From contig CBDCJH010000002.1 in NCBI GenBank assembly GCA_965217775.1, positions 5,984,001-6,048,000 on the forward strand: a stretch of DNA of 64,000 nt. The letters are read 5' to 3'. The position numbers and the translations under genes are program-made. The notes beneath the pieces are model-generated. The model saw nothing but the letters and a program-made list of their open reading frames with translations. It made no database searches and had not been told where the DNA came from. This stretch comes from Acidobacteriota bacterium. GTDB lineage: Bacteria > Acidobacteriota > UBA6911 > RPQK01 > JAJDTT01. Positions 51,854-58,546 of this stretch are shown piece by piece (position 1 is the first letter of the stretch; every line of letters begins with the position of its first letter).

Positions 51854-54553
51854 TCAACTGCCCCCCTGATCCGTTCCGGGAAAGTACCGGTTGGCAAAGG
51901 ATCGGATGTGACTGGGTGTGACGTTCCGGATGACCGAAACGTACTCCCGCGGCGACCGGGAGTCGGTCTTGGAAAAGGCTTTCAAGGCGAGTTGAAGGAG
52001 CAGGTTCTGCCGATCCTGGCGGAGAGCGTGATGGTGAGTGATGGCGCCCACGATGGCGCTCAGGACGTCGTTCCTGGAGAACTGGACCTTGGGGAGGCTG
52101 GAGAGCAACGTCAACAACTCGCGGCGAGCCTCCCTCTCCCGCCCCTCGATGGACGACACCGAGGCGAAAAGGGCGCCCCGGCTCAGTGTCGACTGAAACT
52201 GGAGATCCGGGTCGGACAGTGCCGGGCTTCCCGCGGGCACCAGATCCCGGATCTGAGGACTCAGGAGAAGGTGTTTCCAGACGTCGGCGACGTAGGAGTC
52301 GCGGGTCCCAAAGGAGGGTCCGGGCAGTCCCACCATCACCACGCCCTCCCGCTCCACGACGGCCGGTTCGGGATCGGACGGACTCGGCTCCTCCTCGATC
52401 TCCTCTTCCTCATCCTTGCGCACCGCCCAGCGGCGCTGATAGCGGCTGTTGGCCAGTTGGGAGATGAAGTCATCCAGGAAGGAGGTCCCCTCGATATCTC
52501 CCAGGATGAAAATCCAGGGATGGACGCCCTGCATCCGAATCCGGAGCCATTCGTCGACTTTCTGCAGCTCCAACCGTGAGACCGACTCCCGCGTCCCCAG
52601 CCGGTCCAGGCCATACGGATGAGACCGGTAAAGGAGTGAGCGGGTCCTGCTAAGGGGCCGGGAACGCTCGTTATCCTGCCAGCTCCGGATATCGGCAAGC
52701 AGTTGTTGCCGTTCCAGGATCAGGGACTGCTTGTCCAGCGCCGACTCCCGGTACCAATCGATCAGAAATTCCAGAATTTCGGGAAGATGGCGGGAGAGTA
52801 CAGTGCAGCGAAGGCCGAAGAAATCCAGTTCGTTGACCACTTGGATGTCGGCGCCCATGAGCTCCAGGTCGTACCAGCGGAGCTCCCCCTTTTCTTCCAC
52901 GGTCTGGCGGAGTGTGCTGCGGACCATGAGCTCCGTGATCCCGGCGTTTCCAGCCGACTCCTGGATCCGGCCACCCGGAAAGAACACGCCCAGGTGAACC
53001 AGAGGCGCAGTATGCTCTTCCTGGAAGTAGACCGAAGGTCCTCTCAGGATCGACGTGGATTTGAACTCGGGCCGTGAAAACCGGGGCTGGAACCGAACCG
53101 GCGCGAAGTCATCGCCCCGCGCCGACTTCAGGGGAGAATCCTGCTGCCGGAGGGTTGCCGGCGGCACCAGCAGGTCCAACATCTCCTGGAAGGATGACGC
53201 CGAGAAGGTTCGTTTCTCCGCGGTCGCCGGGTAGTATTCCAAGACGGACAACCGGTCGAGCTTCAGGTACCTGGAAGCGGCTTCCCGCACCCGGGCCGGG
53301 GTCATGGACTGGACCCGGTCGACGGTTTCCGGTCCCTGCCAGAAGCGGCCGGCCGCCTCCATCCTGGCCTGACGGACCGCCCGCTGCCGAAGACTGTTCC
53401 GGTCCCGGTAGAGGTCCTTCACCAAGAGAGCCTTGGCCCGGTTGAGCAGGCCCGGCGTGATCCCCTGCTGCTTGATGTCCTCCACCACCGCCAGGGTTTC
53501 GACTTCCACCCGGTCGATCCGGCCGGGGGAAGCCGCCAGGGAGACCCAGAAGAGGCCCGTCCCGGAATCGGCCTCCACCCGGGACTGAGACCAAACGGCC
53601 GTTCCCGGTTGGACCAGCCTCTGGTGGAGCAAGGAGCTTTTCCCTTGACCGAGAAGGTATGCCAAGAGAAGCAGGGCCTCGTGATCGGGGTGGGCGAGAC
53701 CCGGAACACTGTAGCCTAGCAGTACGTGGGCCTGCTGCAGCTTGCCCGTCAGGTGATGGTAGGTCAGGCGCGTCACGGAGGGACGCCAGGGCTTGCTTTC
53801 AGGCTTCGTCGACCGCCGCCGGACCCGCTCCTTCCCCGCCGGACGGCTGCCATAGATGCGGGCCACGTGTTCCAGCACCTGGTTTCGCAGCACGGCGCCG
53901 GAGACGGACAGAATCAACCGGGACGGATGATAGCGCTCCCGGTGCAGCCGGACCAACGCCTGGTGGGGATCGTCCGCGCGGGTCGCCGGTCCCACCCCGG
54001 GCAGAAGTCCCTCCAGCAATCTGGCCCGGGACAACTCCCGCGGAGAGTGCCGGAGCATGCGGTCCTGATCCTGCACCGCCGCCACGGCCCGCTCCAACTC
54101 CTGGGCCGTTGGAGCCGGCGAGTCCAGCAGGTGGGCATGAGCCTTCAGCGCGTCTTCCAGATGGGCGGCGGGAGCCGTCGAGACAAAAGACGGTCCCGTG
54201 AGTCCCGCTTCAGGTCTCAGCTTCAAGGCCGCCTCGAAACTCAGGGTCTTGAGCTTTTCGTTGTTCAAGAGAAGCTCGGACAGCAACCTCTCCCGGCGCC
54301 GGTCGTCCGGAGCCCCGGCGGACCCGCGCAGATGCGTGACCACGGACGCCAGGGGAGCTGCGGGATGTTCTTCGATCAGGAGGGTCAGGCCGTTCCTGAA
54401 AACGACCCGAATCAGGTTCTGCCGGTCCTCCCGGTGAGTCAAGCTCCGCTCATACTCGGGCCGGGGGAGGTCCCGGCGTCCGGCCTGGCCTTCGGCCCCG
54501 GAAACGGGCAGGCTCAAGATCAGAAACGAGAGTCCGAAAACCAACGCTCTCAT
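51854..54553 (-). CDS. Secreted M16 (insulinase/PqqL-like) family protein lacking HxxEH
   Basis: Signal peptide MRALVF; NGLTLLIEE, YHPSRLILSVSG, LGQGKSSLLHQRL, GITELM and HPYG. No inverted zinc motif in either half. Confidence 0.75.
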   Translation of the reverse strand: MRALVFGLSFLILSLPVSGAEGQAGRRDLPRPEYERSLTHREDRQNLIRVVFRNGLTLLIEEHPAAPLASVVTHLRGSAGAPDDRRRERLLSELLLNNEKLKTLSFEAALKLRPEAGLTGPSFVSTAPAAHLEDALKAHAHLLDSPAPTAQELERAVAAVQDQDRMLRHSPRELSRARLLEGLLPGVGPATRADDPHQALVRLHRERYHPSRLILSVSGAVLRNQVLEHVARIYGSRPAGKERVRRRSTKPESKPWRPSVTRLTYHHLTGKLQQAHVLLGYSVPGLAHPDHEALLLLAYLLGQGKSSLLHQRLVQPGTAVWSQSRVEADSGTGLFWVSLAASPGRIDRVEVETLAVVEDIKQQGITPGLLNRAKALLVKDLYRDRNSLRQRAVRQARMEAAGRFWQGPETVDRVQSMTPARVREAASRYLKLDRLSVLEYYPATAEKRTFSASSFQEMLDLLVPPATLRQQDSPLKSARGDDFAPVRFQPRFSRPEFKSTSILRGPSVYFQEEHTAPLVHLGVFFPGGRIQESAGNAGITELMVRSTLRQTVEEKGELRWYDLELMGADIQVVNELDFFGLRCTVLSRHLPEILEFLIDWYRESALDKQSLILERQQLLADIRSWQDNERSRPLSRTRSLLYRSHPYGLDRLGTRESVSRLELQKVDEWLRIRMQGVHPWIFILGDIEGTSFLDDFISQLANSRYQRRWAVRKDEEEEIEEEPSPSDPEPAVVEREGVVMVGLPGPSFGTRDSYVADVWKHLLLSPQIRDLVPAGSPALSDPDLQFQSTLSRGALFASVSSIEGREREARRELLTLLSSLPKVQFSRNDVLSAIVGAITHHHALRQDRQNLLLQLALKAFSKTDSRSPREYVSVIRNVTPSHIRSFANRYFPGTDQGGS

Positions 54554-54628
54554 GTTGAAATCGTAGCAATCGGGGGTTCCGAACTCAATTTGGATTTGGA
54601 CGCGGGACTCGGGTATCGTAGATCTGTG

Positions 54629-55225
54629 ATGAAGGCGAAAACACTGGACCAAGGGGACCTGATAGAGGGCCTCAAGAGCCGGGACACCAAGGTCATCGAC
54701 ACCTTCGTGGATCAGTTTTCCCGCCCTCTCTTCGGGGTCATTCTCAACTACACCAAGAACCCGTCCGACGCCGAGGAGATCCTCCAGGACACGCTGCTCA
54801 GGGTCATCCGCAAGATCGACACCTTCCGGCAACAGAGCGATATCTGGCCCTGGATGAAGAGGATCGCCGTGAACAACAGCATCATGTGGCTCCGCAAGCG
54901 CAAGCGACAGCGGGAGATCCAATGGGACGACTGGATGCCCCGTTTCCGGGAGAACGGCGAACTGGCATACCCGATCTTCGGCTGGACCGGGGATCCGGAA
55001 GAGCTTTTCCTGAATCGGGAGCTGTCGGCGCAACTCTACCGGGCCATACAGTCCCTGCCCTTCGCATATCGGGCGCCGGTCGTGCTCCGGGATATCGACG
55101 GATATCCGATTCGGCAGATCGCTTCCCTGTTGGGGCTGAAGGAGGCCACCACCAAGACCAGGATTCATCGAGCTCGGCTCTTCTTGCGGGAGAAGTTGGC
55201 TCGCTACCATGACGGGAGGACATGA
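54629..55225 (+). CDS. ECF sigma-70 factor
   Basis: Region 2 DAEEILQDT...WMKRIAVN and region 4 LPFAYR...QIASLLGLKEATTKTRIHRAR. Confidence 0.93.
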   Translation: MKAKTLDQGDLIEGLKSRDTKVIDTFVDQFSRPLFGVILNYTKNPSDAEEILQDTLLRVIRKIDTFRQQSDIWPWMKRIAVNNSIMWLRKRKRQREIQWDDWMPRFRENGELAYPIFGWTGDPEELFLNRELSAQLYRAIQSLPFAYRAPVVLRDIDGYPIRQIASLLGLKEATTKTRIHRARLFLREKLARYHDGRT

Positions 55226-55536
55226 ATTTCAGAAATCGGCGCTCTGAACTGCTCACCTGCAAGGAGTGCATCCACCTGCTTCTGGACTACGCCGACGGCT
55301 CCATGGTCCCCGAGGTCCGGCGCAAACTGGATGAACACCTGTCCGCCTGTCCCCCCTGTCAGCACTATCTCCGCAGCTACACTTCCTGTACGGAAATGGT
55401 TCAACAGCTACGAGACCAGGAGGCGCAAATTCCCGCGGAACTCCAGCATCGCCTCAAGTCGTTTCTGAGGGAGCAGGTGAACCTGCCGTGGCCGCAGCCA
55501 CGCCGCCGGCGGGCGAAGTGGTCCAAGAGATTCTGA
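55222..55536 (+). CDS. Zinc-finger (zf-HC2/ZAS) anti-sigma factor
   Basis: CKEC...DYADG...HLSACPPC (HxxxCxxC); ATGA overlap with the sigma gene. Confidence 0.9.
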   Translation: MNFRNRRSELLTCKECIHLLLDYADGSMVPEVRRKLDEHLSACPPCQHYLRSYTSCTEMVQQLRDQEAQIPAELQHRLKSFLREQVNLPWPQPRRRRAKWSKRF

Positions 55537-55667
55537 TCCGGCAGTCCGTGGTGAAAGTCGCGCGAGCACCGAGACCGTTCCTGCGCCCGCCGGACAAGGC
55601 GCGATGAGGGAGTATCCATGTTGCAAATCTTCCGATTTTCCAGGGATTGTTTCCTCCCTGGTTAGAC

Positions 55668-56621
55668 TCATCCGACCGCCCTGACTGGCCGCGGTGTCCA
55701 CACCCGATCCTGGCTCAGCAGGACGTTGGCCAAAATCACCATCTTGCGCATGATCGCCGTGAGCGCCACCTTCGGCGCCTTGCCCCGCTCACGCAGCTGG
55801 CGATACTTCTGGATGTAGTCCGGATTGTGTCGAATGGCGGTGAGGGCGGCCATATACAGCATCCGCCGCACCCGATGCCGGCCCCCGCGGATGAAGCGAC
55901 GTCCCTTCCAGGTCCCCGACTCCCGAGCCACCGGCGCCAGACCGGCCAAGCTGGCCACCGCCTTGGAGTCGATCTGTCCCAGTTCCGGCATCAGAGAGAG
56001 CAGGCCCGCGACCGTGACCGGACCCATTCCCGGAATCGAAGTCAGCACTTCGGCTTTGCGCGCCAGCGCCGGATCGGCTTTCAGCAACTTGCGGAACTCG
56101 CCGTCCAGGGCCCGGATCTGGCGCTCAATCTGAGCCAGCCGCTGTCGCAAATGCCGCTTCACCATCGGGTGGCGCGCGTGGTGGCTCCGGTTGCGAGCCG
56201 CCGTCCGATCCTTCACCAGCCCGTCCCGCGCCGAGATCAGTTCCTCCAACTGGCGCTGCGTGGGCGAGGACACGTCCACACGCCGCAACGGGAGCGCCTC
56301 CCCCATCCGGGCCAGGATCCGGGCATCCACCGCATCGGTCTTGGCCTCCTGGCCCAGCGCCTGCGCGAACCGCCGCGCCCGCATCGCGTTGACCCGAGCC
56401 AGCGGCAACCGAGCGGCCAGAGCTTCCTCCATCGCCCGGTGCCAGGGGCCCGTGGACTCATACACCACGCACCGGACCTCCGGTCCGATCCAGCGGGCCA
56501 GGGCCTGGAACCCTGCCGTGTCGTTGGGGAACCGCTTCGACCGTCCCGAAGGCCACTCGTGCACGTCCAAATGCGCCTTCGAGATGTCCACACCCACCGT
56601 CTTTGAGGTATCTTGAGTCAT
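55668..56621 (-). CDS. IS110-family recombinase/transposase
   Basis: RuvC-like DEDD: GVDISK, YESTG, KTDAVDA; C-terminal SIPGMG, AGLAPVARESG and GGR..VRRMLYMAA. RBS GGAGG/AAGGA upstream. Confidence 0.96.
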   Translation of the reverse strand: MTQDTSKTVGVDISKAHLDVHEWPSGRSKRFPNDTAGFQALARWIGPEVRCVVYESTGPWHRAMEEALAARLPLARVNAMRARRFAQALGQEAKTDAVDARILARMGEALPLRRVDVSSPTQRQLEELISARDGLVKDRTAARNRSHHARHPMVKRHLRQRLAQIERQIRALDGEFRKLLKADPALARKAEVLTSIPGMGPVTVAGLLSLMPELGQIDSKAVASLAGLAPVARESGTWKGRRFIRGGRHRVRRMLYMAALTAIRHNPDYIQKYRQLRERGKAPKVALTAIMRKMVILANVLLSQDRVWTPRPVRAVG

Positions 56622-56631
56622 CTTTCCTTCC

Positions 56632-56800
56632 TCCTGTGCTTGTCGTGCGAGCCTTGACGCTCACGTATCCATTCAGGACGTTGGGAAAGACGGTGGCGGC
56701 CCCACTCCCTCCCGGCCCTTGACGGCCGGCATACATAACGGCCCGACCACCGCCGCCGAGGCGCCTCTGGCCAGAGGCGCCTCGGATGGATCCTCCCAAA
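56632..56800 (-). ncRNA. Putative IS110 bridge RNA
   Basis: A perfect 30-bp palindrome (56756-56785), then two internal loops each around a GTCAAG-capped hairpin; loop strands match the target and donor junctions. Transcript ends approximate. Confidence 0.78.
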
Positions 56801-57053
56801 AGATCCCAACCCGTATCGGAATAACCCACCAGAAATCATGCCGGCGCCACCGAGCCAAGCCTGGACGATGGCTGGGTCACGGCCCTGCGCCTGCTGTCGC
56901 CACTGGCGGCGTTGACGGGGGCAGGGGGGGCCGGCCCCCCCTGAGACCCCCCGGATGCAAAGAGACACATACCCACTTGAAATCCCTGAAACGAGAGCCC
57001 CGAGGCCCCCTCGTCACCCGGAACCCGCCTGTGGAAAATCAAAGATTTCCCAC

Positions 57054-57198
57054 AGGGTGCTCCCTTTTTGCTGACACCACAATCTGTACCCCCCCAAGAA
57101 GAAAGACAGACAAGAAATAACAGACAAGGGTGCTCCCTTTTTGCTGACACCACAATCTGTACCCCCCAAGAAGAAAGACAGACAAGAAATAACAGACA
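57054..57198. repeat. Tandem duplication (73 + 72 bp) at the IS110 left end
   Basis: AGGGTGCTCCCTTTTTGCTGACACCACAATCTGTAC(n)AAGAAGAAAGACAGACAAGAAATAACAGACA occurs twice, differing by one C in the homopolymer. Confidence 0.95.
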
Positions 57199-57303
57199 AG
57201 CATACCGGGAGTATGTGACCGAGTCGCAACGCAGTCCGCCGGGATGCAGGGACGGTCGAATGCCGTGACGACTTTTGCCACGGACTGCCGAGACGCGGCG
57301 GGA

Positions 57304-58293
57304 TCAGAGAGACAGGCTCTCCACCTCCCGGGCCAGCTTCGAGTCGACGTTGGCGCCGCTGGCAATGAGGCAGACGCTGTCCCAGGACCAGGGTTCGCCG
57401 GCTCTCGACTGCCGCCGGAGCTTCAGGGCCGCGGCCAGGGCGGCGGCGCCGGCGCCCTCGGGCAAGGTCCCCGTGACCTCCTGGAAGAGGCGCATGGCTC
57501 GCTTCAACTCGGTTTCGGAGACCAGAACCATCCGGTCCACCACCTCCAGCATCAGCTCCACGGCTTCGGGGATGGCGACTCTGACCGCCATGCCGCCGGC
57601 GAAGGTTTCGGCTGTGGCGGTGTCCGTCGGCCTGCCGTTGGCGAAGGACAAGGCCATGCAGGGAGCTTCTTCCGACTGGATCCCGATGATCTGAACCGCC
57701 GGGTTCGCCGCCTTCAGACTGCTGGCGAGCCCTCCGATCAGCGCGCCGTTTCCGACCGGTACGAAGACCGCCTCCAAGCCGGGCTGCTGGGTGGCCAGCT
57801 CCAGCCCTATGGTCGAAGTTCCCTCGACGATCCGGGCCGACTTCCCATCCTCGATGAAACGATGACCCGGTTCAAAATCTCGTGCCAGCAACAATTCCTT
57901 GCCTTCGTCCAGGTCCCGTCCCAGCAGCTCCAGATCGGCGCCGAACTCCCGGATCAGCGCCAACTTGCTCTCATCCGCCCCCACCGGCGCCACCACGGTC
58001 AGCGCCATCCCGTACTGCCGGCAGGCGTAGGCCATGGCCGCACCATGGTTCCCGGTCGAAACCGTATAGAGCCGGGAGATTTCGGGATCGGAAACCAGAT
58101 CGGCCACCAGGTTCAAGGCGCCGCGGATCTTGAAGGATCGGACCGGACTCTCGTACTCATGCTTGACGTAGACTTTGGTCCCCAGGAGCCGGGACAGGTC
58201 ATCCTCCAGGGTCAAACGAGTCGGCGGCACCCACCGGCGGACCTCTTCCAATGCGGCCAGCGATCGCTCCGGCGACGGTCTCAGCCCGGCCAT
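57304..58293 (-). CDS. PLP-dependent threonine/serine dehydratase-family protein
   Basis: SFKIRGA, STGNHG, VPVGNG and SGANVD. Start placed at MAGLR. Confidence 0.9.
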   Translation of the reverse strand: MAGLRPSPERSLAALEEVRRWVPPTRLTLEDDLSRLLGTKVYVKHEYESPVRSFKIRGALNLVADLVSDPEISRLYTVSTGNHGAAMAYACRQYGMALTVVAPVGADESKLALIREFGADLELLGRDLDEGKELLLARDFEPGHRFIEDGKSARIVEGTSTIGLELATQQPGLEAVFVPVGNGALIGGLASSLKAANPAVQIIGIQSEEAPCMALSFANGRPTDTATAETFAGGMAVRVAIPEAVELMLEVVDRMVLVSETELKRAMRLFQEVTGTLPEGAGAAALAAALKLRRQSRAGEPWSWDSVCLIASGANVDSKLAREVESLSL

Positions 58294-58546
58294 TTCAGCA
58301 CCACCCCCGCCTTGGGCGTTCACGTTGGTCTCGACCGCGGTTCGCGGATCTGACCAAATCGGTCAACACCATCGAATCGAGGAGAAAAATCCGGCTCCAA
58401 TCCATAGTCCCCTCCGGTTGTGAAAAGATCGAAGTCATCACGATGCGCCGCCAGGAAGAAAACCACATGTCTCGTCCCAGTTCCAGGCCGTGGCATTGGA
58501 CAACCTTCGAAGCCGATGGTCACAATGGTAGGGAGGAGTCACCAGA

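What the first reader, a model, noticed from the sequence alone, without database searches (positions are those of the whole stretch)
55606..57207. IS110 bridge RNA with all four guides readable and matching its own ends and target
Seen on the minus strand. Target loop: ATGTATGC (56736-56729), hairpin CGGCC-GTCAAG-GGCCG, GAGGGAG (56711-56705). Donor loop: ATGGATAC (56672-56665), hairpin GTGAGC-GTCAAG-GCTCGC, ACGACAAG (56646-56639). The right junction ATGGATA-CT-CCCTC matches the left-donor guide 8/8 and is complementary to the right-target guide 7/7. The left junction CGGTATG-CT-TGTCT matches the left-target guide over GTATGC and the right-donor guide over CTTGTC. This parallels the established IS621 bridge-RNA model with a CT core. 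Inference: this is a natural, compact (317-aa) RNA-guided recombinase with target CGGTATG-CT-CCCTC and donor ATGGATA-CT-TGTCT. The mechanism is known, but this ortholog and its specificity may not be.
Basis: partly seen in the sequence, partly recalled or inferred. Interest (0 to 1): 0.82.

Follow-up and report, generated by a model that had tools for sequence, protein, structure and literature searches.

The report
IS110 insertion sequence with bridge RNA
This is an intact jumping gene of the IS110 family that carries its own guide RNA, whose loops spell out both the element's ends and the repeat it inserts into; it is a clear natural example of a mechanism already known.

Summary
On the window's minus strand lies an IS110-group insertion sequence. 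Its net insertion is 1,588 bp here and 1,516 bp in its canonical form. It encodes a 317-aa DEDD/Ser recombinase and, directly upstream, a ~160-nt RNA with a 5' hairpin and two internal loops.

The four guides match the element's junctions. They also match 83 unoccupied CGGTATG-CT-CCCTC sites in the same genome.

I add several points:
- Handshake guides are readable.
- RNA structure covaries: 25 of 34 pairs carry compensatory changes.
- All four guides covary with flanks or ends in relatives.
- The five IS621 catalytic residues are conserved.
- The target is the apex of a 158-bp MITE-like palindrome with about 210 copies.
- The window copy and one other carry a 72-bp tandem duplication of the left end, bounded by CT.
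- A co-resident IS110 lineage shares the donor but has different target loops.

Activity, the circle junction and the RNA ends are not shown. Verdict: a new member of a known kind, of moderate interest.

The parts
55613..57200 (-). Whole IS110-group element, this copy. Net insertion is 1,588 bp. The boundary is ambiguous by the 2-bp CT core, which is present at both junctions (57200-57199 and 55612-55611).
   Evidence: Four copies share the same junctions. Empty-site contigs join 55610 to 57199, skipping 1,588. The element measures 1,590 bp counting both cores. The canonical form is 1,518 bp counting both cores.
57129..57200 (-). Left-end tandem unit 1 (72 nt, G-run of 6). It starts with the core CT followed by the right-donor half TGTCTG.
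   Evidence: Present in copies A (window) and B, absent in copies C and D.
57056..57128 (-). Left-end tandem unit 2 (73 nt, G-run of 7). It also starts CT-TGTCTG and is followed by CT-GTGGG.
   Evidence: It equals the single left end of copies C and D.
56792..57055 (-). Extra left-end DNA between the terminal units and the bridge RNA. Its function is unknown. Close relatives have only 35-38 nt here.
   Evidence: About 100 nt of it resembles an inverted pair elsewhere in the genome. No Rfam hit reached gathering score.
56631..56791 (-). Bridge RNA as delimited by the covariance model. True 5' and 3' ends are not determined.
   Evidence: Model R1 hit at G000:C2:6040631-6040791(-), 145 bits. MFE fold z = -4.66. 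95.9% identity to the ortholog, against 89.3% for the CDS. RNA-library contigs span 56637/8-56792 (weak).
56756..56785 (-). 5' stem-loop, a perfect 13-bp hairpin.
   Evidence: All 12 modelled pairs of this helix show compensatory changes.
56689..56754 (-). Target-binding loop with its closing stem. It contains LTG 56736-56729, an inner hairpin 56728-56713, RTG 56711-56705 and handshake guide UG 56704-56703.
56632..56678 (-). Donor-binding loop with its closing stem TCCTG/CAGGA. It contains LDG 56672-56665, an inner hairpin 56664-56647, RDG 56646-56639 and handshake guide CA 56638-56637. The 3' stem strand overlaps the Shine-Dalgarno-like AGGAGG.
55668..56621 (-). Recombinase gene, 317 aa: RuvC-like DEDD domain, coiled coil and Tnp domain. 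Catalytic residues are D12, E55, D96, D99 and S235 (with G236).
   Evidence: Pfam PF01548 at 1.5e-19 and PF02371 at 8.1e-21. Alignment to IS621 8wt6 at E 8e-28, with residue roles.
55613..55667 (-). Short right end. It finishes in TTGCAACATGGATA, the left-donor half, before the core.
57201..57287 (-). Left arm of the interrupted 158-bp MITE-like repeat. It ends in the left-target half CGGTATG.
   Evidence: Contig loose ends lie at 57287.
55542..55610 (-). Right arm of the interrupted repeat. It starts with the right-target half CCCTC.
   Evidence: Contig loose ends lie at 55541/55542.

Best explanation
This is a recently active insertion sequence of the IS110 family (IS110 group: long left end, short right end).

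It encodes a 317-aa recombinase with a RuvC-like DEDD domain and a serine-bearing Tnp domain. Immediately upstream of the gene it encodes a bridge RNA of about 160 nt.

Inferred mechanism, by homology with IS621:
1. The element excises as a circle whose joined ends read ATGGATA-CT-TGTCTG (the donor).
2. The RNA's second internal loop pairs with this donor. LDG ATGGATAC pairs with the bottom strand. RDG GACAAG pairs with the top strand.
3. The first internal loop pairs with the target CGGTATG-CT-CCCTC through LTG GUAUGC and RTG GAGGGAG.
4. A recombinase tetramer cleaves next to the shared CT core through a phosphoserine intermediate and exchanges strands.
5. Strand exchange is helped by handshake bases. 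UG after the RTG pairs with donor positions 7-6. CA after the RDG pairs with target positions 7-6.
6. Insertion yields the two hybrid junctions seen in the window, with no target duplication beyond the core.

The natural target is the apex of a 158-bp palindromic MITE-like repeat. That repeat supplies 83 further perfect sites in this genome.

Shown here: family membership, element boundaries, empty and filled sites, RNA fold with covariation, and guide-to-flank covariation.

Inferred: transcription and ends of the RNA, the circle intermediate, and catalysis.
For: Protein:
- Pfam DEDD_Tnp_IS110 and Transposase_20 both match.
- Full-length similarity to ISCro4 (6.2e-28) and IS621 (8e-28) structures.
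- D12, E55, D96, D99 and S235-G236 align with IS621 D11, E60, D102, D105 and S241-G242.

Boundaries:
- 4 of 4 copies share LT-CT-RD and LD-CT-RT junctions and lie in different genomic contexts.
- The ORF is intact and 100% identical in 4 of 4 copies.
- There are 83 exact empty 14-mers, 4 left junctions and 4 right junctions.
- Empty-site contigs occur in DNA and RNA runs.

RNA:
- The fold shows a 5' hairpin and two internal loops, z = -4.66 with 0 of 200 shuffles as stable.
- On 19 relatives, 95.4% of cells are paired against 78.2% shuffled and 30-46% for slid partners. 25 of 34 pairs carry compensatory changes.
- The bridge region is the best conserved part against the 88% ortholog: 95.9% against 89.3% for the CDS.

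Guides:
- Polarity matches the published model.
- In 15 distinct loop/target pairs, the cognate mean matched run is 13 against 8.55 non-cognate, with 0 of 10,000 permutations as high.
- In distant relatives LDG, RDG and RTG change together with the ends and flanks.
- Chance test: 14 and 0 of 20,000 shuffles.
Against: - No circle-junction sequence is present in the assembly (0 matches). No such joint appeared in the laid contigs. Contigs cannot show rare forms.
- No sigma-70-like promoter was found in the linear element. None scored 8 of 12 or better across the RE-LE junction joined in silico.
- The bridge RNA lies 409 nt (337 nt in canonical copies) from the left end. Close relatives have 35-38 nt. 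How it is transcribed is therefore open.
- LTG and RDG pair contiguously over only 6 bases, and LTG and LDG cover only the first core base. The published description of IS621 has both core bases in every pairing.
- Rfam has no matching family, so homology to the IS621 RNA itself was not tested by a curated model.
- The covariation alignment was fitted to my model and the sequences are related. Both inflate the covariation counts.
Confidence: 0.9

Rival explanations
1. The loop-to-end matches reflect DNA-level subterminal repeats that the transposase protein binds directly. The predicted RNA would then be irrelevant.
For: The left end does contain extra direct copies of CTTGTCT at offsets 0, 14, 72 and 86. 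Transcription of the RNA is not proven.
Against: The matched strings sit on the two sides of internal loops of a helix-rich fold whose stems covary. A DNA-binding-site model does not predict this. RTG and RDG are reverse complements of the flanks while LTG and LDG are direct copies, exactly the published RNA polarity. The target halves are not part of the element, yet they are mirrored in the loop and covary with it in relatives.
Confidence: 0.03
2. The element is a non-mobile relic. The four copies arose by duplication of the surrounding repeat or segment rather than by RNA-guided insertion.
For: No circle junction was detected. The copy number is only 4.
Against: Sequence outside the 158-bp repeat differs in all four loci. 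Copies are 99.7-100% identical with intact ORFs. An 88% ortholog occupies other subfamilies of the same repeat in another species of the genus, with right flanks CCCTCAGAG and CCCTCCGAAG. The duplicated-left-end variant is itself present at two unrelated loci.
Confidence: 0.05
3. The mobile unit is the 158-bp repeat together with the IS (a composite), not the IS alone.
For: All copies are embedded in the repeat. The repeat has its own termini and 4-bp flanking duplications.
Against: About 210 repeats lack the IS. The IS interrupts them at one fixed position, bounded by the CT that the guides specify. The right arms flanking orthologous copies belong to different repeat subfamilies.
Confidence: 0.02

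Closest known systems
IS621 of Escherichia coli (bridge recombinase and 177-nt bridge RNA; PDB 8wt6)
   Same: - Same two protein domains and the same five catalytic residues.
- RNA upstream of the gene in a long left end.
- A 5' stem-loop, then a target loop, then a donor loop.
- Left guides copy the top strand and right guides are its reverse complement.
- CT core.
- Handshake bases after the right guides.
   Different: - Protein similarity is distant: E 8e-28 over residues 9-301.
- Target and donor sequences are its own.
- LTG and LDG cover only the first core base.
- The left end is 507 nt canonically (579 nt here), with about 340-410 nt of extra DNA ahead of the RNA.
- No junction promoter is recognisable.
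ISCro4 (PDB 9t56)
   Same: Best-scoring solved relative, at 6.2e-28 over residues 8-301. Same family.
   Different: Equally distant. I did not examine its RNA.
ISPpu10 of Pseudomonas putida (preprint 10.64898/2026.03.19.712850, abstract read)
   Same: An IS110 element whose insertions all fall in copies of one conserved intergenic repeat that has a stem-loop next to the target. Here the left-target half GTATG is the 3' arm of the apical hairpin of the repeat.
   Different: Whether the hairpin contributes to recognition here is untested. The repeat here is a 158-bp MITE-like element with 4-bp flanking duplications.
Co-resident IS110 lineage in the same genome ('IS-B', 4 copies; loci L005-L008, L056)
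   Same: - 57% identical recombinase.
- Identical donor halves ATGGATA-CT-TGTCTG and identical LDG.
- RDG with the same GACAAG.
- Same RNA architecture.
   Different: - Different target loops: ACCGCCGC or GTCGCCGC, with matching flanks.
- Short left end of 182 nt and long right end of 309-422 nt.
- Different target repeat.
88% ortholog in a MAG titled 'uncultured Acidobacteriota bacterium' (G055; L021, L022)
   Same: Same length (1,518 bp counting both cores), same ends and same target repeat family. The bridge region is 95.9% identical.
   Different: LTG first base is G instead of A, and there are four other substitutions in loops. No left-end duplication.

Membership tests
IS110-family bridge recombinase system | N-terminal RuvC-like DEDD domain with the four acidic residues | tested here: met
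   PF01548 at 1.5e-19. D12, E55, D96 and D99 align with IS621 D11, E60, D102 and D105.
IS110-family bridge recombinase system | C-terminal Tnp domain with the catalytic serine followed by glycine | tested here: met
   PF02371 at 8.1e-21. S235-G236 align with IS621 S241-G242.
IS110-family bridge recombinase system | Non-coding RNA in the non-coding end with a 5' stem-loop and two internal loops | tested here: met
   MFE fold and consensus fold. Covariation: 25 of 34 pairs compensatory, 95.4% paired.
IS110-family bridge recombinase system | First loop: the 5' side copies left target plus core, and the 3' side is the reverse complement of core plus right target | tested here: met
   GTATGC and GAGGGAG against CGGTATG-CT-CCCTC. 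83 empty sites. Covaries in relatives.
IS110-family bridge recombinase system | Second loop: the guides match the element's own right and left ends (the donor) | tested here: met
   ATGGATAC and GACAAG against ATGGATA-CT-TGTCTG. LDG and RDG change together with the ends in L059, L060, L062, L065, L066 and L037.
IS110-family bridge recombinase system | Handshake bases after RTG and RDG that pair with position 7 of the non-cognate DNA | tested here: met
   U after the RTG pairs with donor A7. C after the RDG pairs with target G7, and the next A pairs with T6 (rule). The rule holds at position 7 in L037, L060, L062 and L065 but not in L059.
IS110-family bridge recombinase system | Insertion without target duplication, with a shared core dinucleotide at both junctions | tested here: met
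   Filled against empty sites differ by the element plus one CT.
IS110-family bridge recombinase system | Circular RE-LE intermediate with a junction promoter | tested here: inconclusive
   Junction 14-mer: 0 in the assembly. No such joint in the contigs. No promoter scoring 8 of 12 or better across the in-silico junction. Raw reads were not available.
IS110-family bridge recombinase system | The RNA is expressed | tested here: inconclusive
   Contigs of two RNA libraries from one study span 56637/8-56792 at depth 25-31, against 3-13 for CDS contigs. Contigs cannot show ends or level, and DNA carry-over is not excluded.
IS110-family bridge recombinase system | RNA-dependent, reprogrammable recombination | not testable with these tools
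   Needs a plasmid or in-vitro assay.
IS110 group (as opposed to IS1111 group) | Long left end carrying the RNA, and a short right end | tested here: met
   Left end 507 nt (579 nt here) and right end 57 nt. Definition from Durrant 2024, Extended Data Fig. 10 legend.
Curated RNA family in Rfam | Match to a covariance model at gathering score | tested here: not met
   Three sub-threshold hits only, to unrelated families. This shows no curated family was matched. It does not show that the RNA is not a bridge RNA.

The most novel reading that the evidence does not exclude
The element's own recombinase and bridge RNA may have remodelled left ends in this genome by 'half-match' exchanges at CT cores.

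1. The 72-bp left-end duplication in two copies has the form [CT-unit][CT-unit]CT. Its internal boundary keeps a perfect right-donor half and nothing else.
2. A stub of the co-resident lineage ends exactly at the DNA that encodes its left-target guide (GTCGCCG-CT). It is joined to a normal right-target context. This looks as if the guide gene itself had served as a pseudo-target.

If this is right, guide-encoding DNA is a substrate. Natural bridge RNAs would then be under selection against self-targeting. In the element of this finding, the LTG-encoding DNA reads GTATG-CC, one base short of a full core.
Probability: 0.3. Interest if true: 0.55.

Novelty: new member of a known kind. Interest (0 to 1): 0.38.

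Why it matters
The mechanism is established, and thousands of orthologues were catalogued in 2024 (2,201 donor and 5,511 target pairs). One more orthologue is therefore not surprising.

Its value is as an unusually self-documenting natural case. One complete genome holds 4 filled and 83 empty sites, readable handshake bases, and a sister lineage with the same donor loop but different target loops.

There are also variants that bear on current questions, namely half-match recombination, left-end expansion, and structure next to the target. The specificity (target CGGTATG-CT-CCCTC, donor ATGGATA-CT-TGTCTG) is ready to test. The orthologue comes from a GC-rich Acidobacteriota lineage that is poorly represented among characterised systems.

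Tried and rejected
Rfam scan of 55300-57500 at E up to 1. It returned only three sub-threshold hits to unrelated families, so no curated bridge-RNA family was matched.

Promoter scan of the linear element: 0 sites. My own scan across the RE-LE junction joined in silico found nothing at 8 of 12 or better. By eye, TTGCAA-N17-TATTTC is 7 of 12, which I do not count as evidence.

Circle junction. The 14-mer has 0 matches in the assembly, and no back-joint was listed in the contigs. Contigs drop rare forms, so this says nothing either way.

RNA cover. In X11 and X12 nothing was laid on 56842-57146. In X10 a contig runs 56453-56939. The break at 56926-56939 coincides with a G/C homopolymer hairpin where DNA contigs also break. 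I draw no transcription start from it.

The DNA contig that skips 57089 to 57162 (72 nt) in X1 may be the single-left-end form or a collapsed repeat. It is not used as evidence.

Reciprocal deletion product of the proposed unequal exchange (LT-CT-GTGGGAAA): 0 in the genome.

Search for more guide-gene stubs by pattern in 9 genomes of the genus. This found only the one in the own genome. The other match, in G053, lies in unrelated coding-like sequence.

Wider sampling gave few close relatives:
- Genome contigs: 8 loci.
- Metagenome contigs: 6 loci.
- Class level: 10 of 137 genomes at E up to 1e-40.
- Phylum sample: 8 of 401 genomes at E up to 1e-60.

The covariation set is therefore small (19 rows) and related.

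I dropped L048 from the guide table because the 5' half of its target loop is replaced by about 1.2 kb of other DNA.

The region around C2:2787497-2789638 that resembles part of the extra left end holds a 361-aa ORF with only a NucS_C match. I could not explain the likeness.

Literature:
- A search for IS110 + Acidobacteriota + sponge found 0 papers.
- I did not see the supplementary lists of Durrant 2024, because supplements are closed. Those lists may already include this orthologue.
Full report
**Observation.**
- Target loop: ATGTATGC 56736-56729; hairpin CGGCC-GTCAAG-GGCCG 56728-56713; GAGGGAG 56711-56705.
- Donor loop: ATGGATAC 56672-56665; hairpin GTGAGC-GTCAAG-GCTCGC 56664-56647; ACGACAAG 56646-56639.
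- Junctions: CGGTATG-CT-TGTCT at 57207-57194 and ATGGATA-CT-CCCTC at 55619-55606.
- ORF: 55668-56621(-), encoding 317 aa.

In 20,000 shuffles of the 579-nt left end, an ordered target-guide pair of this quality arose 14 times. A donor-guide pair never arose. The pattern is not chance.

**Protein.** The ORF matches both Pfam domains of IS110 transposases, PF01548 at 1.5e-19 and PF02371 at 8.1e-21.
- It aligns over nearly its whole length with the solved ISCro4 and IS621 recombinases, at 6.2e-28 and 8e-28.
- Counting along the IS621 alignment, D12, E55, D96, D99 and S235-G236 stand opposite the residues that Hiraizumi et al. give as the DEDD motif, the catalytic serine and its glycine: D11, E60, D102, D105, S241, G242 (passages read).
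- IS621 is 326 aa, so 317 aa is ordinary rather than especially compact.
- More than 4,000 database proteins match. The nearest are 88% and 84% identical, then 72% or less.

**Boundaries, copies and empty sites.** The window is part of a 6.43-Mb genome in two contigs.
- The genome holds four full copies, 99.7-100% identical, each with an intact and identical ORF.
- All four have the same left junction (CGGTATG-CT-TGTCTG) and right junction (ATGGATA-CT-CCCTCATCGC). Sequence further out differs.
- The predicted empty site CGGTATGCTCCCTC occurs 83 times as an exact 14-mer, against 0.08 expected from composition. Each hybrid junction occurs 4 times.
- Contigs of public runs join 55610 to 57199, skipping 1,588 bases.
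- The canonical element is 1,518 bp counting both CT cores. The window copy is 1,590 bp.

**The target is a repeat.** The flanks belong to a 158-bp element.
- There are about 210 unoccupied copies. Of these, 198 have both termini, and 150 of those 198 are flanked by identical 4-nt words, with TTAA and CTAG the commonest. The repeat is therefore MITE-like.
- As a single strand it folds into one long imperfect hairpin (z = -4.66). The left-target half GTATG forms the 3' arm of the apical stem, and the CT core sits at its base.
- Subfamilies differ at the site: 89 read CT-CCCTC, 87 read CA-CCCGA and 20 read CT-CCCGA. All 4 insertions are in the first kind.
- In another species of the genus, whose record is titled 'uncultured Acidobacteriota bacterium', an 88% ortholog sits in the same repeat family. 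Its right flanks are CCCTCAGAG and CCCTCCGAAG. This fits an RTG that reads only CT plus CCCTC.

**RNA.** The 209 nt upstream of the start codon fold into hairpins, a perfect 13-bp 5' stem-loop, and two stem-closed internal loops, each with an inner hairpin. The MFE is -105 kcal/mol, z = -4.66.
- Eleven related sequences give the same consensus.
- I built a covariance model from them. It finds the RNA directly upstream of the recombinase gene in more distant relatives: L059, L060, L062, L058, L065, L066 and L037.
- In the own genome it finds 10 places: four of this element, four of a second lineage, one of a third, and one orphan.
- On 19 sequences, 95.4% of cells pair. Shuffled partners give 78.2% and slid partners 30-46%. 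Of 34 pairs, 25 carry compensatory changes.
- That alignment was fitted to the model and the sequences are kin, so the figures are generous. The slid controls still make the structure credible.
- Against the 88% ortholog, the bridge region is the most conserved part of the element: 95.9%, against 89.3% for the CDS and 79-91% for the rest of the left end.

**Guides.** Durrant et al. state the following (passages read). [quoted passage not shown] The core is included in the pairing. The RDG pairs discontiguously.

Here:
- LTG GTATGC equals left target plus the first core base.
- RTG GAGGGAG is the reverse complement of CT-CCCTC.
- LDG ATGGATAC equals left donor plus the first core base.
- RDG GACAAG is the reverse complement of CT-TGTC. 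With one bulged C, the match can be extended by two more bases (my reading).

The two bases after each right guide behave as the handshake guides of Hiraizumi et al.. U-G after the RTG faces donor positions 7-6 (A, T). C-A after the RDG is fully complementary to target positions 7-6 (G, T).

**Guide covariation.**
- A second IS110 lineage in the same genome and genus (57% identical protein) has the same donor halves and the same donor loop. Its target loops differ, and their left guides (ACCGCCGC, GTCGCCGC, ACCGACGC, GACGCCGC, CACGCCGC) reproduce their own left flanks.
- Over 15 distinct loop/target pairs, the cognate summed run is 13 on average against 8.55 for non-cognate pairings. None of 10,000 permutations reached the observed sum. 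The pairs are related, so this is descriptive.
- In more distant relatives the donor guides change with the ends. ACGGATAC goes with ACGGATA|CT, ACGGATGC with ACGGATG|CT, ACAGTCGC with ACAGTCG|CT, and ATACAAG with CT|TGTAT.
- RTGs match their right flanks in 7 or 8 of 8 positions in L059, L062, L065 and L037.
- Less good cases exist. The GTCGCCGC class has an RTG that matches only CT-CC of its flanks, and L060's RTG does not match in the model's register.

**What is not shown.**
- No circle junction was seen in the assembly or the contigs.
- No sigma-70-like promoter was found in the linear form or across the joined ends.
- In close relatives the RNA model starts 35-38 nt after the left end. 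Here it starts 409 nt after it, or 337 nt in canonical copies. The route of transcription is therefore open.
- Four metatranscriptome runs labelled 'sponge metagenome', all from one study, hold 45-66% of the element's words.
- In two of them a contig spans 56637/8-56792, almost exactly the model's span of 56631-56791. Its depth is 25-31, against 3-13 for CDS contigs. Contigs cannot establish ends, strand or level, so this is at most a weak hint of expression.

**Left-end duplication.** Copies A (the window) and B carry two tandem units of 72 and 73 nt. Copies C and D carry one.
- The arrangement is [CT-unit][CT-unit]CT. The base before each unit differs (G or C), and the base after the trailing CT differs (T or G). 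The homology therefore begins and ends at CT.
- The internal boundary keeps a perfect right-donor half (CT-TGTCTG). Its left side (GAGCACC) matches no guide.
- The variant occupies two unrelated loci, so it has transposed using the outer end.
[quoted passage not shown] Another proposes half-match recombination (abstract read).
- An unequal exchange at CT cores would explain the structure. Replication slippage on 2-bp homology cannot be excluded. The reciprocal deletion product is absent.

**Comparison and verdict.** The system works like IS621 and passes every membership feature that sequence can test. Activity, the circle and RNA expression are untested or inconclusive.

It is a new member of a known kind. 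Its own features are:
- guides that stop at the first core base;
- a long, partly foreign-looking left end;
- a MITE apex as target;
- a sister lineage with the same donor loop.

I found no paper on IS110 in sponge-associated Acidobacteriota (0 papers). I could not see the orthologue tables in the supplements of Durrant 2024.

Noticed in passing
G000:C2:5910820-5910946 (minus strand), outside the window; locus L070: An orphan left-end stub of the co-resident IS110 lineage. It starts at a normal left junction (GCCGCCG-CT-TGTCTG). It ends exactly at the DNA encoding its left-target guide (GTGTCGCCG-CT). It then continues into a normal right-target context (CCCGTTCGGCGGC). It looks like a deletion between the guide-encoded target mimic and the right junction.
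   Followed up: partly
window 55542-55610 and 57201-57287; genome-wide: A 158-bp palindromic MITE-like repeat with about 210 unoccupied copies. Of 198 copies with both termini, 150 are flanked by identical 4-nt words (TTAA, CTAG and others). There are at least three subfamilies at the centre.
   Followed up: partly
window about 56950-57055 (minus strand) versus G000:C2:2787497-2787600(-) and 2789581-2789638(+); locus L068: About 100 nt of the extra left-end DNA is 79-80% like two inverted segments that flank a 361-aa ORF. That ORF has only a NucS_C match (PF01939, 3.4e-8). The meaning of the likeness is unexplained.
   Followed up: partly
L031:2906-3068(-), L034:2911-3022(-), L048:3682-3801(-): Relatives with long left ends (757-1,375 nt) contain a second, degenerate match to the bridge-RNA model upstream of the functional one (45-65 bits). 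This suggests nested or tandem partial modules. In L048 the 5' half of the target loop is replaced by about 1.2 kb of other DNA.
   Followed up: no
G000:C2:4367319-4368367 (minus strand); locus L011: A third IS110 paralog: 48% identical protein, a 389-aa open frame, and its own bridge-RNA model hit of 60 bits. It lies about 150 bp from an unoccupied copy of the 158-bp repeat.
   Followed up: no
window 56630-56636 (minus strand): The 3' strand of the donor-loop closing stem (CAGGA) overlaps the Shine-Dalgarno-like AGGAGG of the recombinase gene. The motif CACAGGAG is invariant in 10 of 11 aligned relatives, with one C-to-T change. Folding of the RNA could mask the ribosome-binding site in read-through transcripts. 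This is inference only.
   Followed up: no
window 51854-55536 and 57304-58323: By ORF listing only, the neighbours are a 1,118-aa ORF on the minus strand, a 104-aa ORF with a CxxC...CxxC motif ending at 55536, and a 339-aa ORF ending at 57304. The repeat with the IS fills the intergenic gap between the last two. These ORFs were not scanned against families.
   Followed up: no
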